Positions 1,590-52,158 of a stretch of DNA of 64,000 nt are shown one piece after another. The stretch's first letter is position 1. Each line of letters begins with the position of its first letter. The notes beneath the pieces are model-generated. The model was not told where the DNA came from, searched no databases, and saw only the letters and a program-made list of their open reading frames with translations. A program made the position numbers and the translations under genes. This DNA comes from Enterobacterales bacterium (GTDB lineage Bacteria; Pseudomonadota; Gammaproteobacteria; Enterobacterales; GCA-2746155), in the NCBI GenBank assembly GCA_047618765.1, contig JBLHLI010000001.1:8449-72448 (forward strand). Reading direction: 5' to 3'.

Positions 1590-1601
1590 GGCGGTAGCGT
1601 G
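1590..1601 (+). promoter_or_regulatory. ops (operon polarity suppressor) / JUMPStart core, RfaH recruitment site
   Basis: Exact GGCGGTAGCGTG, the 12-nt ops consensus GGCGGTAGnnTG. On the coding strand, 38 nt upstream of the first gene of a very long co-directional polysaccharide operon. Confidence 0.8.
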
Positions 1602-1638
1602 TCTGAACCAAATATAATAGAGTAGAGTAGTAATAAGA

Positions 1639-3483
1639 ATGCTAAGCGATGTAAAAATTAGTTATCGGCAAGTATTTAAGGAATCTTATTCATTTCTTGA
1701 TACTGACCTTCGCAAAAAGTCTTTTCTTAGTATTGTGTTATCAACAATAAATGCAGTTTTAGAAATGCTGGCATTGGTTCTTATATATCCATTAATAATC
1801 CTGATTACTAAGAGAGATGAGCCTGTTGGAGAGACGTTCAAAGTTATCGATAATTTGGTAAGTGTCCTGCCAGAGCAGGATCGTGCTTTTTGGATAGGGG
1901 TGGTAATAGCAATTATTTACATCCTTAAAAATGTCTTTTTTCTAAGTTATTCATGGTGGCAGTTATGTTTCATTAGAACGGCATCAGCACGTTTTAGTGT
2001 TAGCTTGCTTAAATATTACATGACTCAATCATATAGTTGGCATCTTAATAAAAACTCTGCTGAATTAATGAGAAATGTTAATGGTTCTGTAATAACTGTC
2101 TTTCGAAATGTAGTGTTAAATATTTTGAATAGTGCCTCTGAATTATTAAATATCTTGGGTATATTACTGATATTGTTGAGCATGGAGCCGCAAGTAATGA
2201 TTGGCATTATACTTTTTCTTGTTATATCTACATATACATTCCAAACTGTTTTTTCAAAAATTTCTATTAAGGCGGGTAAGAACGTAGAATCGTCGAATCT
2301 TTTGATTATTAAGAATGTCATGCAGTCTCTTGGAGCTTTAAAAGAAATGAGGCTGTTAGGGCGAGACTCAAACCTTTATGACCACTTTGAAACGCATAAA
2401 AAAATACAGGTAAATGCTTATCGTGATGTGGCAATGATCTCGTTATTACCGAAAAGTTATTTAGAAATTATATTAATATTAACATTGCTTATCGGAGTTT
2501 TTTTAGTAAATGTGAGCGGTAATCCAGAGCATCTTTATGCGACGCTAGGTATATTTATAGTTGGTGCATTCAGGATGCTGCCTTCAATATCAAAATTATT
2601 GTCAATGGGGCAGGCAATAGCTGCAGGTATCGCTTCTCTAAATAACGTTAAGAATGATTTAAATAAAGCGATGAAGGTAGACCCAGACAAGCATATTTCA
2701 GAGGAGAAATTAAGAAGTAGACTCAGATTTAATTTTAAAATTGAATTGAGTAATGTCGGGCATAGCTACGAAGATAATACAGTCAAAGTACTTGACGATA
2801 TTAATCTTGAAATTAAAAAAGGAGCTTATATAGGCATCGTTGGAGAAACAGGTGCAGGTAAAAGTAGCTTGATCGACGTTTTGACTGGAATACTGGAGCC
2901 AAGTCAAGGGAAGGTGTTCGTTGATGGGGATGAAATCACCGGAAATTATAATGTCTGGAATGGTGCGCTTGGATATGTTCCACAAATGATTTATTTGATC
3001 GATGATACTGTAAGAAACAATATTGCAATTGGCTTAGATGGCGAAAACATAAATGACGAGAGGCTAATGGATGCTATTAAAAAGGCTCAGCTCAGCGACT
3101 TTATAGATCATCTTTCTGATGGTATTGATACGATTGTCGGTGAAAGAGGGGTTAGAATATCAGGTGGAGAACGACAAAGAATTGGTATAGCAAGAGCATT
3201 ATATTCTGATCCTGAAATTATTATATTTGATGAAGGAACATCTTCTCTTGATGCTCAAACAGAAGCAAATATATCAAAATCTATAGAAGGTCTAAGGGGA
3301 GATAAGACTATTATCGTTATTGCACATAGATTGAGTACCGTAGTTTCCTGTGATGAAATCATCTACTTACAGGACGGTAAGGTTTTGGGTAAGGGAAAGT
3401 TTGAAGCTTTAGTTAAAGAAAATCCTACACTTAAAGCTATGGTTAATTATTCGGATATGAGTGATTACATTGTTGAAGATTAA
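1639..3483 (+). CDS. Fused TMD-NBD ABC exporter (MsbA/PglK-type half transporter)
   Basis: N-terminal multi-TM region. Walker A GETGAGKSS, ABC signature ISGGERQRIGIARAL, Walker B IIIFDEGTSSLD, H-loop IAHRL. Confidence 0.85.
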   Translation: MLSDVKISYRQVFKESYSFLDTDLRKKSFLSIVLSTINAVLEMLALVLIYPLIILITKRDEPVGETFKVIDNLVSVLPEQDRAFWIGVVIAIIYILKNVFFLSYSWWQLCFIRTASARFSVSLLKYYMTQSYSWHLNKNSAELMRNVNGSVITVFRNVVLNILNSASELLNILGILLILLSMEPQVMIGIILFLVISTYTFQTVFSKISIKAGKNVESSNLLIIKNVMQSLGALKEMRLLGRDSNLYDHFETHKKIQVNAYRDVAMISLLPKSYLEIILILTLLIGVFLVNVSGNPEHLYATLGIFIVGAFRMLPSISKLLSMGQAIAAGIASLNNVKNDLNKAMKVDPDKHISEEKLRSRLRFNFKIELSNVGHSYEDNTVKVLDDINLEIKKGAYIGIVGETGAGKSSLIDVLTGILEPSQGKVFVDGDEITGNYNVWNGALGYVPQMIYLIDDTVRNNIAIGLDGENINDERLMDAIKKAQLSDFIDHLSDGIDTIVGERGVRISGGERQRIGIARALYSDPEIIIFDEGTSSLDAQTEANISKSIEGLRGDKTIIVIAHRLSTVVSCDEIIYLQDGKVLGKGKFEALVKENPTLKAMVNYSDMSDYIVED

Positions 3484-3522: not shown

Positions 3523-4860
3523 ATGCTAAGAAAAAAACATATACTGATTTCATTTATTGGCGCGTATACTGTATACGACTATTTAAGGTCAGGGATACTC
3601 GATGAGCTATATAAAGAATTCGACTTGAGTTTTGTCATAACATATAAAACTGAAGGGGAAGCAGAGTTAAAGAGCTATGGCGAAGTAGTCAAACTGCCTA
3701 TTGATAATTATTGGAGAACTAGAATATACGGTATTGGAAAAAGTGTTTGGCATTATTATAAGAAAAGAAGTTTCGTTTTAACCGATAAACAACGTAGATA
3801 CCGTTCTTTAATATCCTTGGGTAGATTGGATACATTTGTTGTAAAATCAGTGATAAATTTAAAGCTATCTAAATTAGTCGGTGTCTTGATAAGGCAATTA
3901 TTAAGAATAACGACGCCAAATGTTTTACCGGCAAAAGAGAGCGTAGATTTGGTTATGATGGTTTGGGGGCTTGAATCATTAATAAATGATGACACTATCC
4001 GGTGTGGCAGAGATAATAATATTCCAGTTTTTGCAGTGCAAGGAGGTTTAGATAGTATTTCGACAAAAACTTGTTATGAACCACCTCCATATGCAGCGGT
4101 TTGGGGTGAGTCATGCTTTTATAGTTGTGTGTATGCGCATGGATTTAAGCCCACATCTGTTTTCGTAGTCGGTTCGCCTCGTTTTGAAAGCCATCAAAAG
4201 AAATATAATAAAGAGCAGGTTAGAGGTGAATTAGGTTTGCCTCTGGAGAAAAAAATTGTATTTTTTTGTGGTACGGGATTGCCATTTGATGAAGCTCATG
4301 TGATGAAGACCTTGCAGAAAGCTTATGATGATGGCTGTATAAATAATGATGTAATAATTATGTATAGACATCACCCTTATGGAAGAACAAACTTTGCAAG
4401 CTGGGAAGAAACTAAAAACATACCTTTTGAAACGGACTTTTTAACGGTTGCCCCCTCGGGTAAAGCTAGTAATGGTAGTGAATTTTATTCAAAGTTATTT
4501 AGCGCATCAGATGCTGTTATAACTCCGTATTCAACCATGACCATGGAGGCAACAGCATATGGTTTGCCAGTAATGTGTGTAGGCTATAATGATGATGCTC
4601 GAGAATACCTATATGATTGGTCAAGCAGCATATATGAGCCTCACCTTAGTTTAATTCACCACAGTGACTGGGGTGTGGTTTGTGATGACAAGAGTTTGAT
4701 TGTTGAAAAGTTTAATTTATTGGTAGAGAAGATTGGAGATGAAGAGGTCTATAACGATGCAAAGACTTCGCATAAGTTTATCAATAGGTTAGGTAAGGAA
4801 AGTGTTTCTGATAGAATTAAGTCAGCAATTAACAATCTGGTTAACGTTAGTGATTCTTGA
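3523..4860 (+). CDS. Uncharacterised glycan-locus protein; possible GT-B-type (TagF/sialyltransferase-like) transferase with HP motif
   Basis: 445 aa. VGSPRFES, then YRHHPYG (HP at residues 284-285), then ITPYSTMTMEATAYGLPV about 52 residues later. This pattern resembles C-terminal domains of GT-B transferases that use CMP- or CDP-activated donors. Confidence 0.4.
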   Translation: MLRKKHILISFIGAYTVYDYLRSGILDELYKEFDLSFVITYKTEGEAELKSYGEVVKLPIDNYWRTRIYGIGKSVWHYYKKRSFVLTDKQRRYRSLISLGRLDTFVVKSVINLKLSKLVGVLIRQLLRITTPNVLPAKESVDLVMMVWGLESLINDDTIRCGRDNNIPVFAVQGGLDSISTKTCYEPPPYAAVWGESCFYSCVYAHGFKPTSVFVVGSPRFESHQKKYNKEQVRGELGLPLEKKIVFFCGTGLPFDEAHVMKTLQKAYDDGCINNDVIIMYRHHPYGRTNFASWEETKNIPFETDFLTVAPSGKASNGSEFYSKLFSASDAVITPYSTMTMEATAYGLPVMCVGYNDDAREYLYDWSSSIYEPHLSLIHHSDWGVVCDDKSLIVEKFNLLVEKIGDEEVYNDAKTSHKFINRLGKESVSDRIKSAINNLVNVSDS

Positions 4861-7771: not shown

Positions 7772-8929
7772 ATGAAGAAACGTAGAATAGCTATTGTTAT
7801 AAATAGTCGAGCCAATTATGGAAGAATAAAGTCAGTTCTTACAGAAATAAAAAAGCTTCCAGGTTTAGAATTGATGATTGTTGTAGGTGCTTCTGCATTG
7901 CTATATAGGTTTGGGAATGTAAAGGATATTATTGAGAAAGATGGATTCGAGATTACGACAGCAGTTTATTCTATTGTGGAAGGTGAAACCCCAACCACTA
8001 TGGCTAAGTCTACGGGGTTGGCCATTATGGAGTTAGCCACAATTTTTGAAAATCTAAAACCTGATATTGTCTTAACAGTAGCTGATAGATTTGAAACTAT
8101 TGCGACAGCAATAGCGGCTAGCTATATGAATATCCCTGTCGCACATACTCAAGGTGGCGAAGTTACAGGTTCAATCGATGAAAGTGTAAGGCATGCGGTG
8201 ACAAAACTTTCTCATATTCATTTTCCTGCAACGAAAAAATCTGCTGATATTTTAATAAAGATGGGGGAGTTGCCTGAAACGGTTCATTATACAGGGTGCC
8301 CAGCAATCGATATGATTGCAGATTTAGATTTAAAGTTGCCTAATGATTTCTTTGAGAAATACTTAGGGGTAGGTGAAAAAATTGACCCAGCGAAACCCTA
8401 TATAGTCGTACTACAACACCCTGTAACGACTGAATACGGACAAGGCCTTTCCCAAATAAACGAAACTTTAACTGCAGTGGGCGCTATAGATATGCAAACA
8501 GTGTGGTTATGGCCAAATGTTGATGCAGGTTCAGATGATATCTCAAAAGGTCTTAGGCAATACCGAGAGCTTAATACTAAATCAAAAATTCATTTTTATA
8601 GGAATTTTTCTGTAGAGGACTACGCAAGATTAATTTCTAATTCGTCTTGTTTGATAGGTAATTCAAGTTCTGCAATCAGGGAAGGGGCATTCTTAGGTGT
8701 GCCCGGTGTAAATATTGGTACCCGTCAACAAGGCAGGGAAAAAGCATCTAATATAGTTAATGTTGATTATAATGCTATTGAAATTCAGCGGGCCATCTCA
8801 TCTCAAATTAATCATGAAAAATATGAAAGGTCAACACTGTTTGGAGACGGCAAAGCCGGTGAGCGTATTGCTAAAATACTATCTACCACTGAGGTTAGCG
8901 TACAAAAACGTTTGTCTTATACGGATTAA
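7772..8929 (+). CDS. neuC: Hydrolysing UDP-HexNAc 2-epimerase (NeuC/LegG type)
   Basis: RIAIVINSRANYGRIKSV and AHTQGGEVTGSIDESVRHAVTKLSHIHF are characteristic of the hydrolysing NeuC branch rather than WecB. Confidence 0.8.
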   Translation: MKKRRIAIVINSRANYGRIKSVLTEIKKLPGLELMIVVGASALLYRFGNVKDIIEKDGFEITTAVYSIVEGETPTTMAKSTGLAIMELATIFENLKPDIVLTVADRFETIATAIAASYMNIPVAHTQGGEVTGSIDESVRHAVTKLSHIHFPATKKSADILIKMGELPETVHYTGCPAIDMIADLDLKLPNDFFEKYLGVGEKIDPAKPYIVVLQHPVTTEYGQGLSQINETLTAVGAIDMQTVWLWPNVDAGSDDISKGLRQYRELNTKSKIHFYRNFSVEDYARLISNSSCLIGNSSSAIREGAFLGVPGVNIGTRQQGREKASNIVNVDYNAIEIQRAISSQINHEKYERSTLFGDGKAGERIAKILSTTEVSVQKRLSYTD

Positions 8930-9004: not shown

Positions 9005-9790
9005 ATGACAATTTATACTAAAGAACAATTAAGCGCGCATCATAATTTATTACTTGAAAAAGTTTTTCAAGTAAATACACGTTGGCCTCAGTTTACCCTT
9101 CTATTAAATGATATTAAGAAGCTAGCCGAAGAGTCTAGTGAAACAGAGAAGGTTGTTAGTCTTGAAAGGGGGCTGTTGTATGGAGGCATTAGTTTGTTTG
9201 CGCCCTACTTTTTTAAAAGTAATTTCATTTCTATTGATTGTAGTCCTAAAGCTGCTGATGAAAGTGGTGCTTACAATAAATCACTAGTAGATGACCCGAG
9301 GTTAATAAAAATAAACTCATCAAGAAGAGCATCAATAGAAAATATAGGTGTTGAAGATGATTCGGTTGATTTGGTTGTTATTCCTAATTTAGTTCATCAC
9401 GTTGAAAATCAAAAAAAATTATTTGAAGAAGTGTCTAGAATAATTAAACCCGGTGGTAAGGTGTATATATTTGAAGCTATCGTCAGGGAGCTACATCAAA
9501 TCCCCAATGATTATATTCGGTATACACCATATGGGCTATCATCTATATTAGAAAGCGTTGGTTTAAATGTTGCTAATTGTAGCCATGAAGGAGGGCCATT
9601 CTCAGCAATCTCATATTGTTGGGAGCAAGCGCTTGAATATATACCTGAAGAAGAAAGAAAAGAGTTAGAACGATGGTATCGAGAAGAGCACTTTCCAATG
9701 TTGATGAAATTTGATAACCAATATACAGAAAACTTGGTTAGGAAAAATTCCTGTTTTCCTGTTGCATTCTCAGTGTTAGCGAAAAAATAA
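9005..9790 (+). CDS. Probable class I SAM-dependent methyltransferase
   Basis: VDLVVIPNLVHHVENQKKLFEEVSRIIKPGGKVYIFE matches the post-motif-I region of Methyltransf_11-type enzymes. The N-terminal glycine motif is not obvious. Confidence 0.5.
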   Translation: MTIYTKEQLSAHHNLLLEKVFQVNTRWPQFTLLLNDIKKLAEESSETEKVVSLERGLLYGGISLFAPYFFKSNFISIDCSPKAADESGAYNKSLVDDPRLIKINSSRRASIENIGVEDDSVDLVVIPNLVHHVENQKKLFEEVSRIIKPGGKVYIFEAIVRELHQIPNDYIRYTPYGLSSILESVGLNVANCSHEGGPFSAISYCWEQALEYIPEEERKELERWYREEHFPMLMKFDNQYTENLVRKNSCFPVAFSVLAKK

Positions 9791-16370: not shown

Positions 16371-16371
16371 A

Positions 16372-18679: not shown

Positions 18680-18723
18680 TCGATTATATAAATTAAAACT
18701 TATTATTAATAGGATGATTTAAA

Positions 18724-19488: not shown

Positions 19489-19498
19489 GAATAATTAT

Positions 19499-29451: not shown

Positions 29452-29466
29452 ATTAAGTGGATTGAG

Positions 29467-30258: not shown

Positions 30259-30267
30259 AAGAAGATT

Positions 30268-31050: not shown

Positions 31051-31109
31051 GTACTTAATTGACCGCCGTTCTCCGTGCCAACTGAATTTATTATATAGAG
31101 TCTAAATTA

Positions 31110-36028: not shown

Positions 36029-36051
36029 ATTTCTTTACTATTATAAAAAAT

Positions 36052-36804: not shown

Positions 36805-36838
36805 ATCTATTTTTTGAGAGGCTGTATGGTAAGAAATA

Positions 36839-39277: not shown

Positions 39278-39280
39278 AAT

Positions 39281-45010: not shown

Positions 45011-46035
45011 CATTCGATAGCTATTCTTTTTTAGGAATTATTTTTTCTCTGGCAGGATTATTAACTGTTATAGGGATTGTATATTACAAGCAGCTTGCTA
45101 ATCGTTTTGGCATAGTGGCAAAAAAGAATTTCAGAACGTTACATGAAGTCGATGTGCCGAGGGGCAGTGGGGTGATTCTTGGTTTAGTGTTTCTTTTTTT
45201 TCTGATTATTTTATGGTGTTTCGCTTATATAAATGACTCTATATTTTCCATTTTACTGATTGGTGGTTTAAGTTCAACGTTGTTTGGTTTGCTTGATGAT
45301 ATTATGGATATCAAAGCGCGTATAAAGTTAATTATACAGTTGCTGCTAAGTGTAATGATATTGTACTCGTTGAATGACAAGTCTAAGCTTATTGTTGAGC
45401 AGTTTTCATTTTTAACAATAATAGGAATTATTCTTTTATTTATTGCTGTTGCTTGGTTTTTGAATCTTGTTAATTTTATGGATGGTGCAGATGGCTTGCT
45501 AGCTACTTGTACCTGCTGCGTTTGTGTAATGCTTTTTGGGCTCTTGTATCTGAATCATTCTGATCTTGATGTTATGATTCTTAGTGGATTGTTGGCGGTG
45601 GTATGTTTAGCTTTCCTCCTTTTTAATTGGCCTCCTGCATCGGTATTTATGGGGGATGCGGGCAGTTTATTTATTGCTTTTGTTCTCGGTGTTTTCATCA
45701 TAAATACAATAGATAAGAGCATCAGCCCTTGGCTTTGGTTGATCATGTTGGGTTATATACTAACTGATACGTGTTTAACATTACTTTTAAGAATAATATT
45801 AGTGAAAAAGTGGTATGGGGCGCATAGAAGCCATGCCTATCAAAATTTTGTCAGAATTCGAGGAGAGCATAAAACTGCATTATATATTATCCTTGCTTAT
45901 CATCTGTTTTGGCTAATGCCGCTATTAGTTTTGGCGAATACTTATCAAACCTATGAAATAGCTTTTGCCTTATTAGCCGTGTTGCCAGTATCTTGCGGGA
46001 CAATAAAATATGGGCCTCTGTTATCCAAGGATTAA
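45007..46035 (+). CDS. WecA/WbpL/MraY-family polyprenyl-phosphate HexNAc-1-phosphate transferase (initiating enzyme)
   Basis: Multi-TM. LLDDIMDI, NLVNFMDGADGL and FMGDAGS motifs of the GT4/MraY superfamily. Confidence 0.8.
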   Translation: MTFDSYSFLGIIFSLAGLLTVIGIVYYKQLANRFGIVAKKNFRTLHEVDVPRGSGVILGLVFLFFLIILWCFAYINDSIFSILLIGGLSSTLFGLLDDIMDIKARIKLIIQLLLSVMILYSLNDKSKLIVEQFSFLTIIGIILLFIAVAWFLNLVNFMDGADGLLATCTCCVCVMLFGLLYLNHSDLDVMILSGLLAVVCLAFLLFNWPPASVFMGDAGSLFIAFVLGVFIINTIDKSISPWLWLIMLGYILTDTCLTLLLRIILVKKWYGAHRSHAYQNFVRIRGEHKTALYIILAYHLFWLMPLLVLANTYQTYEIAFALLAVLPVSCGTIKYGPLLSKD

Positions 46036-46044: not shown

Positions 46045-46710
46045 ATGAATCCATCTATAAAAAAACTTATTGAACAGGGCGTTAAGATACATGATCCAAA
46101 TAGGTTGGATATTAGAGGTAGTCTTGAATGCGGTGACAATACTGAGATAGATATTAATGTCATATTTGAGGGAAAGGTTGTATTGGGCTCAAATGTTAAG
46201 ATAGGCCCCCACTGTATTATTAAAGATTCCAGCATTGCTGATAATGTAGAAATCAAAGCCTACACGATGATAGAAGAATCAATGATTGGCTCAAATAGCT
46301 TTGCTGGGCCGTATTGTAGGATTCGCCCAGGCACAAAAGTGGGTAATTATGTTCAGTTAGGAAATTTTTTGGAAATTAAAAATACTATAATAGGGGATGG
46401 GTGTCGGATAAATCATATGAGCTTTCTTGGTGATGCTGAGTTAGGTAAAAAAGTCACACTAGGTGCTGGTGTAATTACATGTAATTACGATGGTAAAACG
46501 ACACATGAAACATTAATTAATGACGATGCGTTTGTGGGCTCGGGGACTAACCTTATCGCACCTATAGAGGTTGGCGTGAATGCGACTATTGGCGCAGGTT
46601 CAACGATTACTAAGAATGTTGAGGCTGAGTATTTAACCTTAGCGCGTAGCCGACAACATATAGTAAAGGACTGGCAGGGGCCAAAGGATTTGAATCAGAA
46701 TGATGACTGA
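46045..46710 (+). CDS. Stand-alone GlmU C-terminal-domain homolog (LbH acetyltransferase, no uridyltransferase domain)
   Basis: LGDAELGKKVTLGAGVITCNYDGKTTHETLINDDAFVGSGTNLIAPIEVGVNATIGAGSTITKNV aligns by eye with E. coli GlmU [65 protein letters not shown]. Only 221 aa. Confidence 0.75.
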   Translation: MNPSIKKLIEQGVKIHDPNRLDIRGSLECGDNTEIDINVIFEGKVVLGSNVKIGPHCIIKDSSIADNVEIKAYTMIEESMIGSNSFAGPYCRIRPGTKVGNYVQLGNFLEIKNTIIGDGCRINHMSFLGDAELGKKVTLGAGVITCNYDGKTTHETLINDDAFVGSGTNLIAPIEVGVNATIGAGSTITKNVEAEYLTLARSRQHIVKDWQGPKDLNQNDD

Positions 46711-47695
46711 GCCTTTAAATATTGCTGTTTGGGGCTTGGGAAAGCATGCCTTAAACCGGATCTTGCCAGCTATTAAAGGCTGCCAACACTTGAGCTTATA
46801 TGGTGTTTATACCAGAGATCAGTCAGTGTTAAGTCGGGTTGGAGAGCATTACCAATGTAAAGCCTTTAGCTCCGAAGCAGAGCTGTTAAACGATAGTCAC
46901 CTAGACGTTATTTATCTGTCAACACCGATTGGTTTACATTACTCCCAAGGTAAATCAGTCTTAACAGCAAATAAGCATCTTTGGTGTGAAAAGCCGCTGG
47001 CTACTCATTATAGGCATGCATGTGAACTGATTGAACTAGCCAGAGAGAAAGCCTTGAGCGTGTTTGAAGGCTTCATGTATTTATACCATCCCCAATTTCT
47101 ACATTTAAATGATTATATTGAGAATAATCATGCCCAGTTAGATCTGATAGAAAGCCGTTTTACAATTCCTATGCTAGAAAAGCCAGGGTTCCGTCACAAC
47201 CCTGATTTGGGCGGCTCCGCTTTATATGATATTGGTTGTTACCCATTATCGTTAGTGCAGGCATTAATGGGCAAACAAAATAGTGACATTAAATATTGCC
47301 GCATTAAAAGAGACGCTCAGCTTGGTGTCGACGTGCGTGGAAAAGTACTACTTGAATATGAGAGTGGTGTACAGGCAAGCTTGGATTGGGGTATGGGGCT
47401 GGGGTATACTAACTCTGTTAGTGTTTTGGGCGCGGAAGGCCGAGTGTTCGCGGATAAGATATTCTCCAAGCCTGATGAATATGAGGCGAGTGTTGTCAGT
47501 TATGATCAATATGGTAATCAAATTGAACAAAAGTCTTCATCTTGCAACCAATTTACCGCAATGTTTGATGCATTTGCAGAAAAAGTGACAAATCTATTAT
47601 CAATTGAAGATGAATATAATAGAATGCTCGGCCGTACAAAATTATTAGAAAATATCAATAAATATGCGAATTCTCGATTCGTGACAAAATTTTGA
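46700..47695 (+). CDS. Gfo/Idh/MocA-family sugar-nucleotide oxidoreductase
   Basis: NIAVWGLGKHALNRILPAI Rossmann start and CEKPLA motif. Confidence 0.7.
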   Translation: MMTEPLNIAVWGLGKHALNRILPAIKGCQHLSLYGVYTRDQSVLSRVGEHYQCKAFSSEAELLNDSHLDVIYLSTPIGLHYSQGKSVLTANKHLWCEKPLATHYRHACELIELAREKALSVFEGFMYLYHPQFLHLNDYIENNHAQLDLIESRFTIPMLEKPGFRHNPDLGGSALYDIGCYPLSLVQALMGKQNSDIKYCRIKRDAQLGVDVRGKVLLEYESGVQASLDWGMGLGYTNSVSVLGAEGRVFADKIFSKPDEYEASVVSYDQYGNQIEQKSSSCNQFTAMFDAFAEKVTNLLSIEDEYNRMLGRTKLLENINKYANSRFVTKF

Positions 47696-47705
47696 CAATT
47701 AAATT

Positions 47706-48161
47706 GTGAGTAAAAATATGCAAAGCTGGAAAAATGTAAAGTTAGATGATGAGTCTATGTGGCCTAAAGAAGGTATCGTTAAACTCGAGGAGCCACATAC
47801 GGATGCTAGAGGATCTATTCAATCATTGGTTAATTTTCCAATGAAGAATCTGTCTTTGATCTCTTCTAAAAAAGGATGTGTTCGCTCAAACCACTACCAT
47901 CAAACAGATTGGCATTATATGTATGTCTTATCAGGTAGCTTTGATTATTTCTTCAGACCGACAGGCTCTGATGAAGAACCTCAAAAAGTGACAGTAAAAG
48001 CAGGTGAGATGGTATTTACTCCTCCTATGGAAGATCATGCGACTGTTTTTCTAGAAGATTGTGATTTATTGGCAATGAGCCGTAATCCACGAGACCAAGA
48101 AGCTTATGAGTCTGATGTTAAACGAGTTATTTTGGTTGCTCCAGAAGATGTTTCGTTATGA
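47706..48161 (+). CDS. Cupin-fold sugar-nucleotide epimerase/ketoisomerase-like protein
   Basis: DARGSIQSL and NHYHQTDWHYMYVLSG are cupin motifs. GTG at 47706 or ATG at 47718. Confidence 0.55.
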   Translation: MSKNMQSWKNVKLDDESMWPKEGIVKLEEPHTDARGSIQSLVNFPMKNLSLISSKKGCVRSNHYHQTDWHYMYVLSGSFDYFFRPTGSDEEPQKVTVKAGEMVFTPPMEDHATVFLEDCDLLAMSRNPRDQEAYESDVKRVILVAPEDVSL

Positions 48162-49411
48162 GTGAAAAAGATTATTACCTAAGGCAAACATGTCGTATGT
48201 GTTTGTCTCAGGATCTGAAAAAAGTGATGGCGTTGACGCCTACACCTCCAGGAAATAATTTCGTTACTAAGGAATGTCTTGAGCTAGAACAGCCATGCTA
48301 CCCGCTTGAGTTGCATTTTTGTGAGCACTGTAGTCATGTGCAATTAGGGCATGTTGTTGATCCAGAAATTTTGTATCAAAATGATTACTCTTATGTGTCT
48401 TCAACATCCAGTCATTTTGTCAATCACCTTCGTGATTATGCTGATCATATGATCAGCAAATATTCTTTGCAAAAGAATGAATTTGTCATTGATATTGGTT
48501 CTAACGATGGTACTTGTTTAAGCTTTTTTCAGAAGCAAGGAATGCAAGTGTTAGGTGTGGATCCAGCGACCAACATTGCTGAGATTGCTAATGAAAATGG
48601 TGTTGAGACAATAGCTGATTTTTTCTGTCTACAGACAGCGGAGAATATCAAAACGACACATGGCAAAGCAAAACTGATTACTTCACATAATGCTTGTGCA
48701 CACATTGATGATTTGAGTGGTGTAATACAAGGCGTAAAAAATTTACTTGATGACGATGGTATTTTTTGTCTCGAAGTTGGGTATTTGTATGATGTTTATG
48801 GTAATAACTGGTTTGACACTATTTATCATGAACATGTAGACTTTCATCTAGTTAAGCCCTTTAGCTATTTGTTTTCACGCTTTGATATGGAAGTCATTTC
48901 AGTAGAGCGCATCAGCCCACAGGGTGGCTCTATCAGAGTTGTTGCTCAACATAAAGGTGGGCCTTATGAAAAAGATACTAGTGAAAAAGAGTTAATGCAG
49001 CTTGAGCAAGATGTTGGCTTATATACTGCTAGCACTTATATGAATTTTGCAGAAAAAATCAATCGGGTTAAACAAGACTTACGTGAGTTGATTAACAAAT
49101 TAAAAGCTGAAGGAAAGACTATAGCAGCATTTGGGGCTCCGACTAAAGCCACTACTTTAATGGCTCATTTCGAACTTAGCCAGAATGATATTGATTATAT
49201 TGTCGATGAAAACCCTTTAAAACAAGGTTTATATTCGCCGGGGCTTCATATTCCTGTTTTTTCTGCGAATAAAATTTATACCGACAAACCTGATTATGTT
49301 TTGATATTGGCGTGGAACTTTGCTGAGCCTATCATGAAAAACCATGCGGAATATCTACTGCAGGGTGGAAACTTTATTGTGCCTATGCCGCAGCCTAAGA
49401 TAGTTAATTAG
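48158..49411 (+). CDS. NDP-hexose C-methyltransferase (TylCIII-like; Zn-ribbon + SAM MTase + C-MT C-terminal domain)
   Basis: CRMCLSQDL...CEHCSHVQL, VIDIGSNDGTCL, and C-terminal DYVLILAWNFAEPIMK. Confidence 0.7.
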   Translation: MSEKDYYLRQTCRMCLSQDLKKVMALTPTPPGNNFVTKECLELEQPCYPLELHFCEHCSHVQLGHVVDPEILYQNDYSYVSSTSSHFVNHLRDYADHMISKYSLQKNEFVIDIGSNDGTCLSFFQKQGMQVLGVDPATNIAEIANENGVETIADFFCLQTAENIKTTHGKAKLITSHNACAHIDDLSGVIQGVKNLLDDDGIFCLEVGYLYDVYGNNWFDTIYHEHVDFHLVKPFSYLFSRFDMEVISVERISPQGGSIRVVAQHKGGPYEKDTSEKELMQLEQDVGLYTASTYMNFAEKINRVKQDLRELINKLKAEGKTIAAFGAPTKATTLMAHFELSQNDIDYIVDENPLKQGLYSPGLHIPVFSANKIYTDKPDYVLILAWNFAEPIMKNHAEYLLQGGNFIVPMPQPKIVN

Positions 49412-49439
49412 CGTTTATTTTTCACATTAAATTTATTAG

Positions 49440-50117
49440 TTGTATATTATGACAAAGAAAATATTGGTTATAGCTCCTCACCCTGATGATGAAACTTTGG
49501 GTGTTGGCGGTACAATTGCAAAGCATATTGAGAAAGGGGATAAAGTCACCATTCTTACCGTGTCTGGTCATTTACCGCCGCTTTATAACGAAGAAGCATT
49601 TCAGGAAACTCTTGACGAAGCGAATAAAGCGTATGCAATTCTAGGTGTGACAGAATCAATATTCCTAAAAATACCTGCAACGTGTATCGGTGAGAAGCCT
49701 GTTAGAGAATTTAATAAAAAAATTAACGATGTTGTCGCTCAGGTTGAACCCGATACTGTATTTGTTCCTTATCCAGACAGGCATATTGACCACCGTTTAG
49801 TTTTTGATGCTGCTCTGGTTGCTACTCGACCCGTTTATCATGGTGCGAATATCGAAATCGTTGCGGCGTATGAAACGCTATCAGAAACGCATTGGAATGC
49901 TCCGCATATAGAGCCAAATTTCACGCCTAATTGGGTTGTTGATATTACCCAGCAAATAGATAAAAAGGAGTCAGCGCTTCGTTGTTACTCCAGTCAAATT
50001 CCAGCATTTCCAGGCGCACGTTCTATTGAAGCAATGAGAGCTTTAGCAGTGTTCAGGGGGACACAGGTTGGTTTTGCTTATGGTGAAGGTTTCCATATTA
50101 TTCGAAAATTGAATTGA
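49440..50117 (+). CDS. PIG-L/LmbE-family N-deacetylase
   Basis: VIAPHPDDETLGVGGTIAKH and RHIDHR. TTG at 49440; the ATG at 49449 is more likely. Confidence 0.8.
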   Translation: MYIMTKKILVIAPHPDDETLGVGGTIAKHIEKGDKVTILTVSGHLPPLYNEEAFQETLDEANKAYAILGVTESIFLKIPATCIGEKPVREFNKKINDVVAQVEPDTVFVPYPDRHIDHRLVFDAALVATRPVYHGANIEIVAAYETLSETHWNAPHIEPNFTPNWVVDITQQIDKKESALRCYSSQIPAFPGARSIEAMRALAVFRGTQVGFAYGEGFHIIRKLN

Positions 50118-50202
50118 TAATGATCTTCCCCACTAAATTAGTACTGATGCTTTATGATGTTTAAGCTACCTAACAAGACTAGAGTATGTAGAATGACATA
50201 TA

Positions 50203-52158
50203 TTGGTTAATTTTGAGATCCTTATGGAAAAAAGTCGCTTTATTTACCAGCTTGCAACAATGAGACGCTCTCATAAACGCTTTATTATGTTGTTGAGCGA
50301 TATTATTGCTTTACCTATTGCTTTATGGTCGTCTTATGCACTACGTTTATCTGAGTGGTGGCCTGAGCCCTATCTCCTTGCTTCTTGGTGGTTGTTTGCT
50401 GTAACTCCAATTATTGGTGTTTATGTTTTCGCTCGCCTTGGCCTATATCGTGCGGTAGTACGTTTTATGGGCACTCAGGCTATCTGGGCGGTTGTCAAAG
50501 GAGTTTCTCTGTTAGCACTCTTTTTGTGGGCGGTAGCCTTTGTTTTTCAAATTCAAGCTTTTCCTCGTTCTATTCCTATTAACTTTGCCTTAGTGGCATT
50601 GGTTTACGTTGGAGGTAGTAGACTGTTAGTTCGCCATTATTATCATTGGTTTGTACGGCATCGTTTAGAAAAAGATGCAGTGCTGATTTATGGCGCGGGT
50701 GGTGCGGGTATTCAGTTGGCTACGGCTTTGTCTGATGGACGTGAATATTACCCTGTAGGCTTTATAGATGATGACTCTTCATTATGGAAGTCTACTATTA
50801 AGGGGTTGCCTGTTTACGGAATTGATTCCTTAGAAAAGGTCATCGAGAAAAAAAATGTAAGGCATATATTATTAGCAGTGCCAAATATTACGAATAAAGA
50901 ACGTAAGAAAATTTTAGAGTGCTTGAGTCGTTACAGTGTTCATATCCAAACTATACCGTCCATGCCGGACCTTTTATTAGGTAAAGCTTTGGTTGAACAG
51001 TTACAGGAAGTTGAAATTGAAGATTTACTAGGGCGTGATTCTGTTCCCCCCATGCCGGAGTTGATGGCCAAATGCATTACTAATAAGAGCGTAATGATAA
51101 CGGGAGCAGGCGGCTCTATTGGCTCTGAATTATGTCGACAAGTGTTAGCTAAAAAGCCAAAAATACTATTGCTGTTTGAGCAAAGCGAGTTTAACTTATA
51201 TCAAATAGAACAAGAGCTTCAATTTAAAAAAAGTGAATTTCAGTGTGATACGGTGATTGTTGCACTTTTAGGTTCGGTTGTTGATAGAGCGCGTGTTCAT
51301 AATACCTTGTCACATTTTATCGTAGATACCATTTATCATGCCGCCGCTTATAAGCATGTACCATTAGTCGAGCGTAATATTATTGAGGGAGTAACCAATA
51401 ATATCTTCGGTACTCAAGTGGTTGCCGAAGAGGCGGCGCGAGCCCATGTTAGCTACTTTATTTTGATTTCGACCGATAAAGCTGTGCGTCCAACCAATGT
51501 TATGGGGGCAACCAAGCGCTTTTCTGAGCTTATTTTACAATCCTTGTCTATGGATAGTCCAACGGTCTTCTCCATGGTTCGCTTTGGTAATGTACTAGGA
51601 TCTTCAGGTTCTGTAGTACCTTTATTTCGTAATCAAATTAAAGCTGGGGGGCCGATTACCGTAACTCATAAAGAGATCAATCGCTTTTTTATGACCATTT
51701 CTGAAGCGGCTTCCCTAGTAATTCAAGCAGGTTCAATGGCTAAAGGAGGGGATGTGTTTGTGCTCGATATGGGTGAGTCAGTAAAAATTGTTGATTTGGC
51801 AAAACGTATGGTGCAGTTATCAGGCTTGGAGCTTAAAACAGAAGAGAATCCTGAGGGTGATATTGAAATTAAATATACAGGTTTGCGTCCAGCTGAAAAA
51901 TTATACGAAGAGCTTTTAGTGGGAGATAATGTCATTGGTACTGATCACCCTAAAATAATGCGGGCTAATGAGGAGTTTTTTCACGCAGACGTGATCAAAA
52001 GGTTTTTACTGAAAATAAAAACAGCATGTGAGGCAGGTGATTGCTCGGAATTAACGTTGATTCTCAAAGAGGCTGTAGTTGGCTACAGGCCTCATGATTT
52101 AATAGTTGATCCATTGTCGCTTGCTGTGGTGAAGTCTAATGTAGTTAAGCTTGTCTAG
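50203..52158 (+). CDS. WbpM/PglF/CapD-type membrane-anchored UDP-HexNAc 4,6-dehydratase
   Basis: Four N-terminal TM segments. IYGAGGAGIQLA, ITGAGGSIGSEL, HAAAYKHVPL, STDKAVRPTNVMGATKR. TTG at 50203 or ATG at 50224. Confidence 0.85.
   Translation: MVNFEILMEKSRFIYQLATMRRSHKRFIMLLSDIIALPIALWSSYALRLSEWWPEPYLLASWWLFAVTPIIGVYVFARLGLYRAVVRFMGTQAIWAVVKGVSLLALFLWAVAFVFQIQAFPRSIPINFALVALVYVGGSRLLVRHYYHWFVRHRLEKDAVLIYGAGGAGIQLATALSDGREYYPVGFIDDDSSLWKSTIKGLPVYGIDSLEKVIEKKNVRHILLAVPNITNKERKKILECLSRYSVHIQTIPSMPDLLLGKALVEQLQEVEIEDLLGRDSVPPMPELMAKCITNKSVMITGAGGSIGSELCRQVLAKKPKILLLFEQSEFNLYQIEQELQFKKSEFQCDTVIVALLGSVVDRARVHNTLSHFIVDTIYHAAAYKHVPLVERNIIEGVTNNIFGTQVVAEEAARAHVSYFILISTDKAVRPTNVMGATKRFSELILQSLSMDSPTVFSMVRFGNVLGSSGSVVPLFRNQIKAGGPITVTHKEINRFFMTISEAASLVIQAGSMAKGGDVFVLDMGESVKIVDLAKRMVQLSGLELKTEENPEGDIEIKYTGLRPAEKLYEELLVGDNVIGTDHPKIMRANEEFFHADVIKRFLLKIKTACEAGDCSELTLILKEAVVGYRPHDLIVDPLSLAVVKSNVVKLV

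What the first reader, a model, noticed from the sequence alone, without database searches (positions are those of the whole stretch)
1590..52158. A ~50-kb single-orientation glycan locus with four ulosonic-acid synthases and three CMP-sugar synthetases
In one co-directional gene array I read three full-length NeuB-family synthases (6726, 12672/12708, 20802). Each keeps the two His-containing motifs (GLSDHSG/IEVH, GFADHAE/IEKH, GLSDHTMG/IEKH) and a SAF domain. There is also a KdsA-family synthase (27214) and three CTP_transf_3-type cytidylyltransferases (9807, 13712, 31872). Characterised O-antigen and capsule loci normally encode one nonulosonic-acid pathway. Here, Neu/Leg-type, Pse-type, a third divergent NeuB set and a Kdo-like set sit side by side with an unusually heavy tailoring load. 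This predicts either a repeat unit with several different acidic 8-/9-carbon sugars or a previously undescribed highly modified derivative.
Basis: partly seen in the sequence, partly recalled or inferred. Interest (0 to 1): 0.8.

Follow-up and report, generated by a model that had tools for sequence, protein, structure and literature searches.

The report
Mosaic surface-glycan island, four ulosonic-acid synthases
An uncultured marine-type gammaproteobacterium carries a 50-kb cell-surface sugar locus, stitched together from several portable gene cassettes, that probably makes three or four different acidic 8- or 9-carbon sugars; two of the cassettes are common in environmental bacteria but I found no biochemical study of them.

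Summary
Window 1590-52158 holds 49 tightly packed genes, 48 on the + strand. They include three intact NeuB+SAF synthases (6726, 12708, 20802), one KdsA (27214) and three cytidylyltransferases (9807, 13712, 31872).

The locus is a mosaic of cassettes that recur elsewhere:
- **Neu-type trio:** NeuB1-NeuC-CT1.
- **Extended pseudaminic-acid operon:** PseC-AKR-NeuB2-CT2-AT3-PseH-PseG…PseI. This operon is found in many phyla. In 24 of 29 related loci it has two NeuB-family genes and only one cytidylyltransferase.
- **KdsA cassette:** KdsA-CBS-HpcH-SDR-SDR-KdsB-like, with 80-87% identical KdsA homologues in at least three lineages (Alphaproteobacteria, Gammaproteobacteria, Nitrospirae).
- **Assembly genes:** WecA-type initiation plus L-QuiNAc/FucNAc-type genes.

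NeuB2 and CT2 occur as a single fused protein in 27 of the 150 best family representatives, so they form a genuine synthase/activating-enzyme pair. NeuB2 keeps its catalytic and metal residues but has a remodelled PEP pocket.

Arrays with several NeuB genes recur in metagenomes and have precedents in Campylobacter jejuni and Leptospira. The array itself is therefore not unprecedented. The NeuB2/CT2 and KdsA cassettes are where new chemistry is most likely. No products have been demonstrated.

The parts
1590..1601 (+). RfaH ops element (exact 12-mer GGCGGTAGCGTG) in the 510-bp leader of operon 1
   Evidence: one exact match where 0.06 are expected by chance
1639..3483 (+). ABC exporter/flippase, PglK/HepA/MsbA-like, about 6 TM helices
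   Evidence: Homologues head the conserved Pse-type operon in many loci
3523..4860 (+). TagF-like (Glyphos_transf, weak hit) candidate glycosyl/ulosonyl transferase
   Evidence: Lies next to NeuB1-type cassettes in L080, L085, L099, L100, L130
4929..6702 (+). Methyltransferase MT1 (4929-5825) and PhyH-like dioxygenase PhyH1 (5809-6702); tailoring genes of the Neu-type module
   Evidence: Co-located with the NeuB1 cassette in L100
6726..7766 (+). NeuB1: NeuB+SAF synthase of a Neu/Leg-like clade of its own
   Evidence: 285 bits, below the 399.65 NeuB cut-off; all catalytic residues kept
7772..8929 (+). NeuC: hydrolysing UDP-GlcNAc 2-epimerase
   Evidence: TIGR03568, 391 bits against a 236 cut-off
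9005..9790 (+). Methyltransferase MT2, lying between NeuC and CT1
   Evidence: A methyltransferase occupies the same position in L005; an MT2 homologue (47% id) lies in the Neu module of L100
9807..10514 (+). CT1: NeuA-type CMP-sialic-acid synthetase
   Evidence: best solved relatives are 6IFD and 1EYR, both CMP-Neu5Ac synthetases
10581..11810 (+). PseC aminotransferase
   Evidence: TIGR03588, 482 bits against a 423.5 cut-off
11821..12690 (+). Aldo/keto reductase (AKR) of the accessory cassette
   Evidence: Conserved directly upstream of NeuB2 in about 40 loci
12708..13709 (+). NeuB2: divergent NeuB+SAF synthase with a remodelled PEP pocket
13712..14479 (+). CT2: SpsF-like cytidylyltransferase, 2 bp after NeuB2; the same two domains are fused in other organisms
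14463..15779 (+). Class-III (GSA-aminomutase-like) aminotransferase AT3
15798..17319 (+). PseH N-acetyltransferase (15798-16370) and PseG-like hydrolase (16372-17319)
   Evidence: PseH 153 bits against 93.1; PseG 129 bits, below 153.55
17363..20782 (+). MBL-fold protein, TylF-type methyltransferase and a methyltransferase-GNAT fusion; tailoring genes of the Pse module
   Evidence: Homologues (50-58% id) lie in the same order between the PseG/PseH genes and PseI in L100
20802..21845 (+). PseI: pseudaminic acid synthase
   Evidence: TIGR03586, 520 bits against 340.25; one search gives E=1e-96 against C. jejuni PseI 8H2C, and one search gives 48% identity to it
22160..22167 (+). Second ops core (GGCGGTAG) in the 348-bp leader of operon 2
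22194..23810 (+). unk538: conserved protein of unknown fold; homologues carry the Pfam label PFTS_polysacc; candidate transferase
   Evidence: Single-sequence structure model failed
23859..27201 (.). Hexapeptide O-acyltransferase (23859-24452), methyltransferase (24403-25314), PhyH-like dioxygenase on the minus strand (25316-26296), second hexapeptide acyltransferase (26539-27201)
   Evidence: Similar genes lie upstream of KdsA in L133 and L134
27214..28095 (+). KdsA paralogue: Kdo-8-P synthase of the Cys (GGPCAIES) type
   Evidence: (344 bits against 242)
28079..31859 (+). CBS-pair protein, NanM-type sugar O-methyltransferase, HpcH/HpaI pyruvate aldolase and two SDRs
   Evidence: Same order in L133 and L134
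31872..32654 (+). KdsB/KpsU-like CMP-Kdo-type synthetase
   Evidence: (194.5 bits against 193)
32657..34159 (+). unk500: conserved partner directly downstream of the KdsB-like gene; candidate octulosonate transferase
   Evidence: Single-sequence structure model failed
34156..35079 (+). RmlD-like reductase, 43-46% identical to the gene that sits between PseB and PseC in the conserved operon
35162..40723 (+). Two GT2 glycosyltransferases and two polytopic membrane proteins (812 aa with about 18-20 TM helices; 480 aa with about 11 TM helices); candidate polymerase/flippase
40720..43780 (+). RmlD-like reductase, PseB/FnlA-like 4,6-dehydratase and WecB-like 2-epimerase; a 6-deoxy-L-HexNAc set that could also supply the PseB step
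43793..46035 (+). GT4 glycosyltransferase and WecA-type polyprenyl-phosphate HexNAc-1-P transferase (about 11 TM helices)
46045..50117 (+). Stand-alone GlmU C-terminal-type acetyltransferase, GFO/IDH/MocA oxidoreductase, cupin, sugar C-methyltransferase and PIG-L deacetylase
50203..52158 (+). PglF/WbpM-like membrane-anchored UDP-GlcNAc 4,6-dehydratase; last gene of the island
52610..52813 (-). tRNA-Asp and tRNA-Val at the 3' boundary, before ccmH

Best explanation
The region is an ops-bearing (probably RfaH-controlled), WecA-initiated surface-polysaccharide island of the O-antigen or capsule type. The host is an uncultured gammaproteobacterium labelled 'Enterobacterales bacterium' MAG. The island is assembled from portable sugar-nucleotide cassettes and has three CMP-activation branches.

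**Branch 1, Neu-type.** NeuC, NeuB1 and CT1 make a CMP-sialic-acid-like nonulosonate from UDP-GlcNAc. It is probably methylated or hydroxylated by MT1, MT2 and PhyH1.

**Branch 2, extended Pse-type.** A PseB/FnlA-like dehydratase, possibly with the RmlD-like reductase, feeds PseC, PseH, PseG and PseI to make pseudaminic acid. A tightly coupled second synthase/cytidylyltransferase pair, NeuB2-CT2, works with an aldo/keto reductase and a class-III aminotransferase. It makes either a second, differently substituted ulosonic acid or an amino-modified Pse. CT2 is the only activating enzyme for this whole branch.

**Branch 3, Kdo-type.** A Cys-type KdsA paralogue, a CBS protein, an HpcH aldolase, two SDRs, an O-methyltransferase and a KpsU-like CT make a CMP-octulosonate, probably modified.

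**Assembly.** GT2, GT4, TagF-like, unk538 and unk500 transferases build the glycan on undecaprenyl phosphate. Polytopic membrane proteins and a PglK-like ABC protein export or polymerise it.

**Shown here:** gene identities, catalytic-residue conservation, cassette recurrence, gene fusions, ops sites and island boundaries. **Inferred:** every substrate and product, the sharing of CT2 by two synthases, and the assembly route.
For: **Family assignments above curated cut-offs.** PseI, PseC, PseH, NeuC and KdsA pass; KdsB passes marginally.

**Catalytic residues.** NeuB1 and PseI keep every NmNeuB residue checked. In NeuB2, the equivalents of E25, K53, Q55, K129, Y186, H215, E234, H236 and D247 are kept and are invariant across 19 family members. 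E134 is replaced by an invariant Asp. E134D occurs in 29% of environmental NeuBs and in archaeal and eukaryotic synthases (PMC8208679).

**Cassette recurrence.**
- The NeuB1-NeuC-CT1 trio appears in most of about 45 metagenome loci.
- The order ABC-PseB-RmlD-PseC-AKR-NeuB2-CT2-AT3-PseG-(PseH)-PseI-unk538 appears in about 40 loci from Proteobacteria, Bacteroidota, Nitrospirota, Planctomycetota, Gemmatimonadota and Actinobacteria.
- The order unk538…KdsA-CBS-HpcH-SDR-SDR-CT-unk500 appears in L133 and L134.
- KdsA+CBS follow directly after PseI in Devosia sp. UYZn731 (L021) and in L025.

**Coupling of NeuB2 and CT2.** 24 of 29 NeuB2-anchored loci of at least 15 kb have two NeuB-family genes and one CT. 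There are 27 NeuB2::CT2 fusion proteins and one PseI-like::NeuB2::CT2 triple fusion.

**CT identities.** CT1 is nearest to solved CMP-Neu5Ac synthetases. The KdsB-like protein is nearest to 1GQ9.

**Regulation and assembly.** There are ops elements in both leaders. WecA and multi-TM proteins are present.

**Literature.** AKR and class-III aminotransferase genes flank 'pseF' in Aeromonas Pse islands (PMC7874193). They occur in the L. pneumophila Sg6/12 O-antigen cluster (PMC3694923). An SpsF-like CT is fused to an AKR in a Vibrionaceae Pse cluster (PMC7371886).
Against: - No product has been measured.
- No gene reaches the PseF or PseB equivalog cut-offs, and PseG is below its cut-off.
- No SIS-domain arabinose-5-P isomerase or KdsC phosphatase is present in the locus, so the Kdo branch would depend on housekeeping genes or use another substrate.
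- NeuB2 has lost several residues that surround PEP in NmNeuB: T110D, G131H, S132G, N184Q, plus S154G and S213A (positions around PEP as listed in PMC7371886). Its chemistry may therefore differ from PEP condensation.
- NeuB1 has Gly at the Neu/Leg-diagnostic position but Ser at position 184, which is typical of Pse enzymes (PMC7371886). Its substrate is uncertain.
- About 12.5 kb of the source contig lies outside the window and could hold further pathway genes.
- The sequence comes from a MAG contig.
Confidence: 0.6

Rival explanations
1. Four independent, complete pathways (Neu/Leg, Pse, a third NulO and Kdo-like) each deliver a different acidic sugar into one repeat unit.
For: There are four synthases from four distinct clades or families. 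NeuB2::CT2 fusions show that NeuB2 has its own activation step. The locus holds enough candidate transferases: TagF-like, unk538, unk500, two GT2 and one GT4.
Against: There are only three cytidylyltransferases for four synthases and no PseF equivalog. In 24 of 29 related loci, NeuB2 and a PseI-like gene share one CT within one operon. The locus has two ops-led operons and two kinds of export machinery, so the sugars may go to different glycoconjugates.
Confidence: 0.2
2. NeuB2 does not make a separate sugar. It is either a redundant or alternative Pse synthase, or a non-PEP-using or structural partner of PseI. NeuB enzymes are domain-swapped dimers, so a NeuB2-PseI heterodimer is conceivable. 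On this reading the locus makes only Neu-type, Pse-type and Kdo-type sugars.
For: NeuB2 always co-occurs with a second NeuB-family gene: 29 of 29 loci of at least 15 kb. One triple fusion, PseI-like::NeuB2::CT2, exists. The PEP-surrounding residues are replaced in NeuB2. Aeromonas islands with AKR, CT and AT3 but no NeuB2 are described as Pse-biosynthesis islands, and a Pse derivative was measured on Aeromonas flagellin (in a strain of another island group) (PMC7874193).
Against: The metal ligands and all three proposed catalytic acids are invariant in the NeuB2 family, whose mean column identity is 75%. That argues for catalysis. Fusion to a cytidylyltransferase is what one expects for consecutive synthase and activation steps.
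Confidence: 0.2
3. The 50 kb are two or more adjacent but functionally separate glycan loci, for example an O-antigen plus a capsule or a protein-glycosylation system. The concentration of synthases would then reflect the clustering of islands at one hotspot, not one complex glycan.
For: There are two ops-bearing leaders, at 1590 and 22160. A PglK-like ABC protein sits at one end and Wzx/Wzy-like polytopic proteins in the other half. The cassettes occur separately in other genomes. The island borders tRNA genes.
Against: Only one initiating transferase (WecA type) was recognised. The first operon lacks a recognisable PseB, which lies in the second half at 41589, so the halves appear metabolically dependent on each other. 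The same cassette joints recur in L080, L100, L133 and L021.
Confidence: 0.3
4. The array is a metagenome-assembly chimera that joins fragments from different organisms.
For: The sequence derives from a MAG contig. GC varies from 0.28 to 0.41 among genes.
Against: The window has no N and gene spacing is tight and continuous. Every type of cassette junction is seen in independent assemblies: ABC-Neu-Pse in L080, Pse-Neu in L100 and L039, NeuB2/CT2-unk538-KdsA in L133, and PseI-KdsA in L021 and L025. The core-gene flank is found identically in an unrelated read set (L001).
Confidence: 0.03

Closest known systems
Campylobacter jejuni flagellar glycosylation locus; the strain carries NeuB1, NeuB2 and NeuB3
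   Same: C. jejuni encodes NeuB variants for all three NulO pathways (PMC7371886, PMC7591256). From my own knowledge, a locus of about 50 kb combines the Pse and Leg pathways, several cytidylyltransferases and many tailoring genes.
   Different: In C. jejuni the sugars are put on flagellin by Maf proteins, and the Neu5Ac set lies in a separate LOS locus. The window has no Maf or FlmG. It has WecA, GTs and polytopic export proteins instead. It also adds a KdsA/KdsB cassette and the NeuB2-CT2-AKR-AT3 cassette, which I do not recall in the C. jejuni locus.
Leptospira interrogans NulO gene cluster
   Same: [quoted passage not shown] More than one NulO species has been detected experimentally (PMC3438082).
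   Different: The gene content differs: a Leg pathway and a NeuB-phosphatase fusion. No Kdo-type cassette is described in that cluster. Whether it has a NeuB2-clade member was not tested here.
Aeromonas polar-flagellin glycosylation islands (group I) and the L. pneumophila Sg6/Sg12 O-antigen cluster
   Same: An aldo/keto reductase and a class-III aminotransferase flank the cytidylyltransferase inside a Pse gene set (PMC7874193, PMC3694923).
   Different: The published descriptions list no second NeuB between the AKR and the CT. The functions of the AKR and the aminotransferase are unassigned there as well.
Bacillus subtilis sps genes (SpsE NeuB-like synthase, SpsF cytidylyltransferase)
   Same: NeuB2's best solved relative is SpsE (1VLI). 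CT2 is of the SpsF type. SpsF is needed for transfer of legionaminic acid to the spore surface, which fits CMP activation (PMC7439481).
   Different: The similarity is weak: E=3e-21 over 246 residues. The sps pathway makes Leg from UDP-sugars and has no AKR or class-III aminotransferase.
Capsule-specific Kdo genes of E. coli group 2 capsules (KpsU, KpsF) and rhizobial K-antigens containing Kdo and Pse
   Same: A second, locus-specific CMP-Kdo synthetase sits beside polysaccharide genes. The window's KdsB-like protein matches 1GQ9 best; from memory this is the capsule-specific K-CKS. Rhizobial K-antigens combine Kdo-type and Pse-type sugars (PMC7591256 for Pse in S. fredii; the rest from memory).
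   Different: The cassette here includes its own Cys-type KdsA, only a CBS pair without the SIS isomerase domain, an HpcH aldolase, two SDRs and a methyltransferase. There are no KpsMT/KpsED/KpsCS export genes.

Membership tests
NeuB family (PEP-dependent ulosonic acid synthases, PF03102 + SAF) | NeuB TIM-barrel domain plus a C-terminal SAF/AFP-like domain | tested here: met
   All three genes (6726, 12672/12708, 20802) hit both Pfam models above the gathering scores.
NeuB family (PEP-dependent ulosonic acid synthases, PF03102 + SAF) | Metal ligands His215 and His236, and catalytic acids E25, E134 and E234 (NmNeuB numbering) | tested here: met
   NeuB1 and PseI keep all of them. NeuB2 keeps all except E134D. 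E134D is common in environmental, archaeal and eukaryotic synthases (PMC8208679).
NeuB family (PEP-dependent ulosonic acid synthases, PF03102 + SAF) | Conserved residues surrounding PEP (positions 110, 129, 131, 132, 182, 184) | tested here: inconclusive
   NeuB1 and PseI conform. NeuB2 has T110D, G131H, S132G and N184Q, all invariant within its own family (position list from PMC7371886). Whether NeuB2 uses PEP cannot be decided from sequence.
Pseudaminic acid pathway (PseB, C, H, G, I, F) | PseI equivalog (TIGR03586) | tested here: met
   Gene 20802 scores 519.8 bits against a 340.25 cut-off. It is 48% identical to C. jejuni PseI 8H2C.
Pseudaminic acid pathway (PseB, C, H, G, I, F) | PseC and PseH equivalogs | tested here: met
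   PseC scores 482 bits against 423.5. PseH scores 153 bits against 93.1.
Pseudaminic acid pathway (PseB, C, H, G, I, F) | PseB and PseG equivalogs | tested here: inconclusive
   Gene 41589 scores 285 bits on PseB (cut-off 407.75) and 259 bits on FnlA (cut-off 730). Gene 16372 scores 129 bits on PseG (cut-off 153.55).
Pseudaminic acid pathway (PseB, C, H, G, I, F) | PseF equivalog (CMP-Pse synthetase, TIGR03584) | tested here: not met
   CT1 scores 104 bits against 205.7. CT2 has no hit. The SpsF-like CT2 is inferred to take over this role.
Neu5Ac pathway (NeuC, NeuB, NeuA) | Hydrolysing UDP-GlcNAc 2-epimerase NeuC (TIGR03568) | tested here: met
   Gene 7772 scores 391 bits against 235.9.
Neu5Ac pathway (NeuC, NeuB, NeuA) | NeuB equivalog (TIGR03569) | tested here: not met
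   Gene 6726 scores 285 bits against 399.65. It is 33% identical to NmNeuB and forms a clade of its own. It works like a Neu-type synthase by gene context, but it is not a member of the equivalog.
Neu5Ac pathway (NeuC, NeuB, NeuA) | CMP-sialic acid synthetase | tested here: inconclusive
   CT1 is a CTP_transf_3 protein (52.5 bits). Its best solved relatives are CMP-Neu5Ac synthetases 6IFD and 1EYR, at E=1e-22 to 1e-23. No equivalog model was passed.
Legionaminic acid pathway | LegB/PglF-type dehydratase plus LegC-type aminotransferase plus acetyltransferase feeding a NeuC-like LegG and LegI | tested here: not met
   The only DegT-family gene is a PseC equivalog; it scores 221 bits on the LegC model against a 420 cut-off. 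Most NeuB1-clade loci lack a dehydratase or aminotransferase. A PglF-like dehydratase does exist at 50203. The unseen 12.5 kb of the contig is not excluded.
Kdo pathway (KdsD, KdsA, KdsC, KdsB) | KdsA equivalog | tested here: met
   Gene 27214 scores 344.5 bits against 242 (NF003543) and 329.9 bits against 314 (TIGR01362). It has the Cys-type motif GGPCAIES.
Kdo pathway (KdsD, KdsA, KdsC, KdsB) | CMP-Kdo synthetase KdsB | tested here: inconclusive
   Gene 31872 scores 194.5 bits against 193 on one subfamily model and is below the cut-off on four others. Its best solved relative is 1GQ9.
Kdo pathway (KdsD, KdsA, KdsC, KdsB) | Arabinose-5-P isomerase (SIS domain) and Kdo-8-P phosphatase in the locus | tested here: not met
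   Only a stand-alone CBS-pair protein is present (28079-28504). No SIS or HAD domain was found among the ORFs of at least 100 aa.
RfaH/ops-controlled polysaccharide operons | ops element GGCGGTAGnnTG in the untranslated leader, on the coding strand | tested here: met
   There is an exact 12-mer at 1590-1601 and an 8-mer core at 22160-22167, both in leaders on the + strand. Presence of rfaH in the genome is not testable here.

The most novel reading that the evidence does not exclude
The AKR-NeuB2-CT2-AT3 cassette is widespread: 228 clusters at 50% identity, found in many phyla, and often with NeuB2 and CT2 fused. It may encode a pathway to a CMP-activated ulosonic acid that has not been described. 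Candidates are an extra-amino or higher-carbon (C10-type) acid of the kind recently detected, without an assigned pathway, in Magnetospirillum (bioRxiv 10.64898/2026.04.20.719630). The KdsA-CBS-HpcH-SDR-SDR-CT cassette may make a second undescribed, modified octulosonate. On this reading the window's organism would display four chemically distinct ulosonic acids.
Probability: 0.3. Interest if true: 0.75.

Novelty: new variant of a known kind. Interest (0 to 1): 0.55.

Why it matters
Nonulosonic and octulosonic acids shape how bacterial surfaces are recognised by phages, predators and immune systems. Their pathways are also sources of enzymes for making rare sugars.

This locus is a compact example in which two cassettes, both widespread and with no biochemical study found in the searchable literature, sit beside well-understood Pse and Neu genes:
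- NeuB2 fused or coupled to an SpsF-like cytidylyltransferase, together with an AKR and a class-III aminotransferase.
- A very highly conserved Cys-type KdsA with an HpcH aldolase, two SDRs and a KpsU-like CT.

The fusions and the recurrent synteny give concrete, testable enzyme pairs. Cultured carriers are available: Devosia sp. UYZn731, Polynucleobacter bastaniensis and Zoogloeaceae bacterium G21618-S1. These could link unexplained CMP-ulosonic acids seen by mass spectrometry to genes.

The multi-synthase array on its own is less remarkable, because similar combinations recur in metagenomes.

Tried and rejected
**Attempts that led nowhere**
- Exact-sequence look-ups of the window's LigA, PseI, NeuB2 and NeuB1 proteins found no contig. 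Only ZipA was found, on a 5.9-kb Logan contig. The 12.5 kb of the source contig outside the window therefore could not be read.
- A metagenome scan with the upstream GFO-like protein found nothing.
- Single-sequence AlphaFold models of unk538 and unk500 were unusable, with mean pLDDT of 32 and 36. No fold search was run.
- Pfam at E<=1 gave nothing for unk538, unk500 and unk480, and only a sub-threshold 18-bit hit for unk812. The solved-structure search for unk538 also gave nothing.
- The promoter and terminator scan of 21000-27500 did not exceed shuffled controls.

**Readings considered and rejected**
- Pseudogenised or non-catalytic extra NeuBs. The ORFs are intact and the catalytic residues are conserved.
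- A legionaminic-acid reading of NeuB1. There is no LegC-type aminotransferase, and relatives travel as a bare NeuB-NeuC-CT trio.
- A flagellin-glycosylation island. There is no Maf or FlmG, while WecA and ops elements are present.
- A near-identical locus already linked to a solved glycan. None surfaced: the best NeuB2 relative is 67% identical, the best NeuB1 relative is 58% (54-58% among the top hits), and all come from uncultured sources.

Full report
**1. Observation**

The window has 49 ORFs between 1639 and 52158, and 48 of them are on the + strand.
- NeuB+SAF proteins at 6726, 12672/12708 and 20802.
- A DAHP_synth_1/KdsA protein at 27214.
- CTP_transf_3 proteins at 9807, 13712 (marginal, 24.5 bits against a 22.6 cut-off) and 31872.

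The quoted His motifs are present and align with the metal ligands of N. meningitidis NeuB. The window contains no N. Apart from the two leaders described next, the only gap over 100 bp between genes of the array is 242 bp.

A second ops core lies at 22160, 27 nt before the next long run of genes. The array is therefore probably two ops-led operons. It ends at a gap that holds tRNA-Asp and tRNA-Val, just before ccmH.

GC is 0.30-0.40 inside the locus and 0.41-0.48 in the flanking ccmH-smc-zipA-ligA core. The source is an NCBI record named 'MAG: Enterobacterales bacterium', on a contig of 76,543 bp.

**2. The three NeuB paralogues**

They are 23-31% identical to one another. They fall into three separate clusters when grouped with 175 NeuB-family ORFs from related loci.

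- **Gene 20802 is a pseudaminic acid synthase.** It scores 520 bits on TIGR03586 against a 340 cut-off and is 48% identical to C. jejuni PseI 8H2C.
- **Gene 6726 (NeuB1) is below both equivalog cut-offs.** It scores 285 bits against 400 on the NeuB model and is 33% identical to NmNeuB, but it keeps every catalytic and PEP-site residue checked. It has Gly at the position reported to separate Neu/Leg enzymes (Gly) from Pse enzymes (Phe). It has Ser at position 184, which is typical of Pse enzymes (PMC7371886).
- **Gene 12708 (NeuB2) is very divergent.** It scores 148 bits, and its best solved relative is B. subtilis SpsE at E=3e-21.

Within the NeuB2 family, the equivalents of E25, K53, Q55, K129, Y186, H215, E234, H236 and D247 are invariant. 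E134 is an invariant Asp. The residues that surround PEP in NmNeuB are replaced: T110D, G131H, S132G, S154G, N184Q and S213A. E134D is found in 29% of environmental NeuBs and in archaeal and eukaryotic synthases (PMC8208679). None of the paralogues looks pseudogenised.

**3. NeuB1 belongs to a Neu-type trio**

NeuB1 has thousands of homologues at about 55% identity. In L005 and in most of about 45 metagenome loci, the gene sits in a NeuB-NeuC-CT trio, usually with no dehydratase or aminotransferase nearby.

NeuC passes the hydrolysing-epimerase equivalog, at 391 bits against 236. CT1's best solved relatives are CMP-Neu5Ac synthetases. The only DegT-family aminotransferase in the window is a PseC equivalog. 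I therefore read this set as a sialic-acid-like (Neu-type) branch, not a Leg branch. Its exact substrate is open. The methyltransferases and the PhyH-like gene around it recur with the cassette in L100.

**4. NeuB2 belongs to an extended Pse-type operon that is widespread**

A genome scan with a NeuB2 family alignment returned 47 loci. They come from Proteobacteria, Bacteroidota, Nitrospirota, Planctomycetota, Gemmatimonadota and Actinobacteria. They include three cultured strains: Devosia sp. UYZn731, Polynucleobacter bastaniensis and Zoogloeaceae bacterium G21618-S1.

BLAST of their ORFs against the window's proteins shows a near-universal gene order: ABC - PseB - RmlD-like - PseC - AKR - NeuB2 - CT2 - class-III aminotransferase - PseG - (PseH) - PseI - unk538.

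All 29 such loci of at least 15 kb carry at least two NeuB-family genes, and three carry three. In 24 of the 29 there is exactly one cytidylyltransferase, of the CT2 type.

An exhaustive HMMER search found 228 clusters at 50% identity with E<=1e-30. Of the best 150 representatives, 27 carry a NeuB2-like and a CT2-like domain in one polypeptide. One 963-aa protein is PseI-like::NeuB2-like::CT2-like. The shared single CT and the constant company of a PseI-like gene show that the set is not independent of the Pse pathway.

The literature contains partial versions of this cassette with no function assigned:
- An AKR and a class-III aminotransferase flank pseF in Aeromonas group I islands (PMC7874193).
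- The same gene types occur in the L. pneumophila Sg6/12 O-antigen cluster (PMC3694923).
- An SpsF-like CT is fused to an AKR in a Vibrionaceae Pse cluster (PMC7371886).

An oxidoreductase plus an aminotransferase is the classic way to turn a hydroxyl into an amine. That is my inference for their role.

**5. The KdsA set is also a portable cassette**

The KdsA paralogue passes two equivalog cut-offs and has the Cys-type motif GGPCAIES. Its homologues are 80-87% identical in MAGs labelled Kordiimonadaceae, Nitrospirae and Methylobacter. The copy in Devosia (L021) is 77% identical.

In L133 and L134 the order is PFTS_polysacc (unk538-like) … KdsA - CBS - (methyltransferase) - HpcH aldolase - SDR - SDR - KdsB-like CT - a protein of about 500 aa. 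This is the same order as window 22194-34159. In Devosia (L021) and in L025, KdsA+CBS follow directly after PseI.

The KdsB-like protein is marginal on one subfamily model, at 194.5 bits against 193. It matches 1GQ9 best; from memory this is the capsule-specific E. coli enzyme. The locus has no SIS isomerase or KdsC phosphatase. The HpcH aldolase is itself a pyruvate-dependent maker of 2-keto-3-deoxy acids. The product may therefore be a modified octulosonate, not plain Kdo. This is inference.

**6. The rest of the locus**

- RmlD-like, PseB/FnlA-like and WecB-like genes at 40720-43780 resemble a 6-deoxy-L-HexNAc set. The dehydratase could also supply the PseB step, since it scores 285 bits on the PseB model, below the cut-off.
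- Assembly and export candidates are a WecA-type initiating transferase, a GT4, two GT2s and two polytopic proteins of about 18-20 and about 11 TM helices. A PglK/HepA-like ABC protein and a terminal PglF/WbpM-like dehydratase complete this set.
- No Maf or FlmG was found.

Together with the ops elements, this points to an undecaprenyl-phosphate-linked O-antigen or capsule, not to flagellin glycosylation.

**7. How unusual is it?**

The same cassette joints recur in independent assemblies:
- ABC-NeuB1-NeuC-CT1-TagF-like-PseB-RmlD-PseC in L080.
- CT2…PseI-NeuB1-NeuC…CT1 in L100, with the same MBL/TylF/MT-GNAT tailoring genes at 50-58% identity.
- NeuB2, PseI and NeuB1 together in L039.
- Third NeuBs of other clades in L008 and L009.

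This also argues against an assembly chimera. [quoted passage not shown]

No near-identical locus tied to a solved structure surfaced. The best relatives are 67% (NeuB2) and 58% (NeuB1) identical and come from uncultured sources.

**8. Verdict**

The locus most likely has three CMP-activation branches (Neu-type, extended Pse-type, Kdo-type) and four synthases. NeuB2/CT2 is a genuine but Pse-embedded pair whose product is unknown.

The most interesting lead is that environmental bacteria make CMP-activated ulosonic acids that have no assigned pathway, including C10 species in Magnetospirillum (bioRxiv 10.64898/2026.04.20.719630). The NeuB2/CT2/AKR/AT3 cassette and the KdsA/HpcH cassette are widespread candidates for such chemistry. 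That link is untested.

I rate the locus a new variant of a known kind, with interest 0.55.

Noticed in passing
window 1590-1601 and 22160-22167; also 50529-50536, 56741-56748 and 60075-60082: There are five GGCGGTAG ops cores where 0.53 are expected by chance. Two lie in the leaders of the two long gene runs. The one at 1590 is the full E. coli-type 12-mer. One lies inside the PglF-like gene and two lie in core genes; those three may be chance matches.
   Followed up: partly
window 52610-52813: tRNA-Asp(GTC) and tRNA-Val(TAC) lie on the minus strand, in the 804-bp gap between the last glycan gene and ccmH. This is a plausible island boundary or integration hotspot.
   Followed up: no
proteins P0396-P0509 (relatives of window 12708-14479): 27 of the 150 best NeuB2 representatives are NeuB2::CT2 fusions. 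P0402 is a PseI-like::NeuB2::CT2 triple fusion. P0404 and P0406 carry a GNAT-like segment before the NeuB2 domain. P0487 adds a GT2 domain after CT2.
   Followed up: partly
window 27214-28095: The KdsA paralogue is 80-87% identical to homologues in MAGs labelled alpha- and gamma-proteobacteria and Nitrospirae. From general knowledge, that is much higher than I would expect for housekeeping KdsA across such distances. It suggests recent horizontal spread of the cassette under strong constraint.
   Followed up: partly
window 46045-46710: A stand-alone protein matches only the C-terminal acetyltransferase half of GlmU (270 bits, GlmU residues 241-450). It has no uridylyltransferase domain. It sits next to a GFO/IDH/MocA oxidoreductase, a cupin, a sugar C-methyltransferase and a PIG-L deacetylase. 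This five-gene set was not interpreted.
   Followed up: no
window 25316-26296 (minus strand): This is the only minus-strand gene in the island: a PhyH-like dioxygenase with a weak Pfam hit. It is wedged between the two halves of the unk538-KdsA cassette. A PhyH gene lies directly upstream of KdsA in L133, but there it is on the same strand as KdsA.
   Followed up: partly
L001 (Logan SRR28416798 contig, 5.9 kb): An unrelated read set carries a ZipA 100% identical to the window's, followed by genes of the same product lengths and families as the window's SLT_4 and 146-aa genes (a 202-aa SLT_4 protein and a 146-aa protein). The same or a very close organism therefore occurs in another sample. Its called LigA is 685 aa, against the 699-aa TTG-start ORF here, which suggests a later start codon.
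   Followed up: no
window 36839-40723: Two adjacent polytopic membrane proteins (812 aa with about 18-20 TM helices; 480 aa with about 11 TM helices) have no family match above threshold. The 812-aa protein is unusually large for a Wzy or Wzx and could be a fusion or a GT-C-type enzyme.
   Followed up: no
window 58-1128: The GFO/IDH/MocA-like gene upstream of the first ops leader has island-like GC (0.36). The island may therefore continue upstream of the window.
   Followed up: partly
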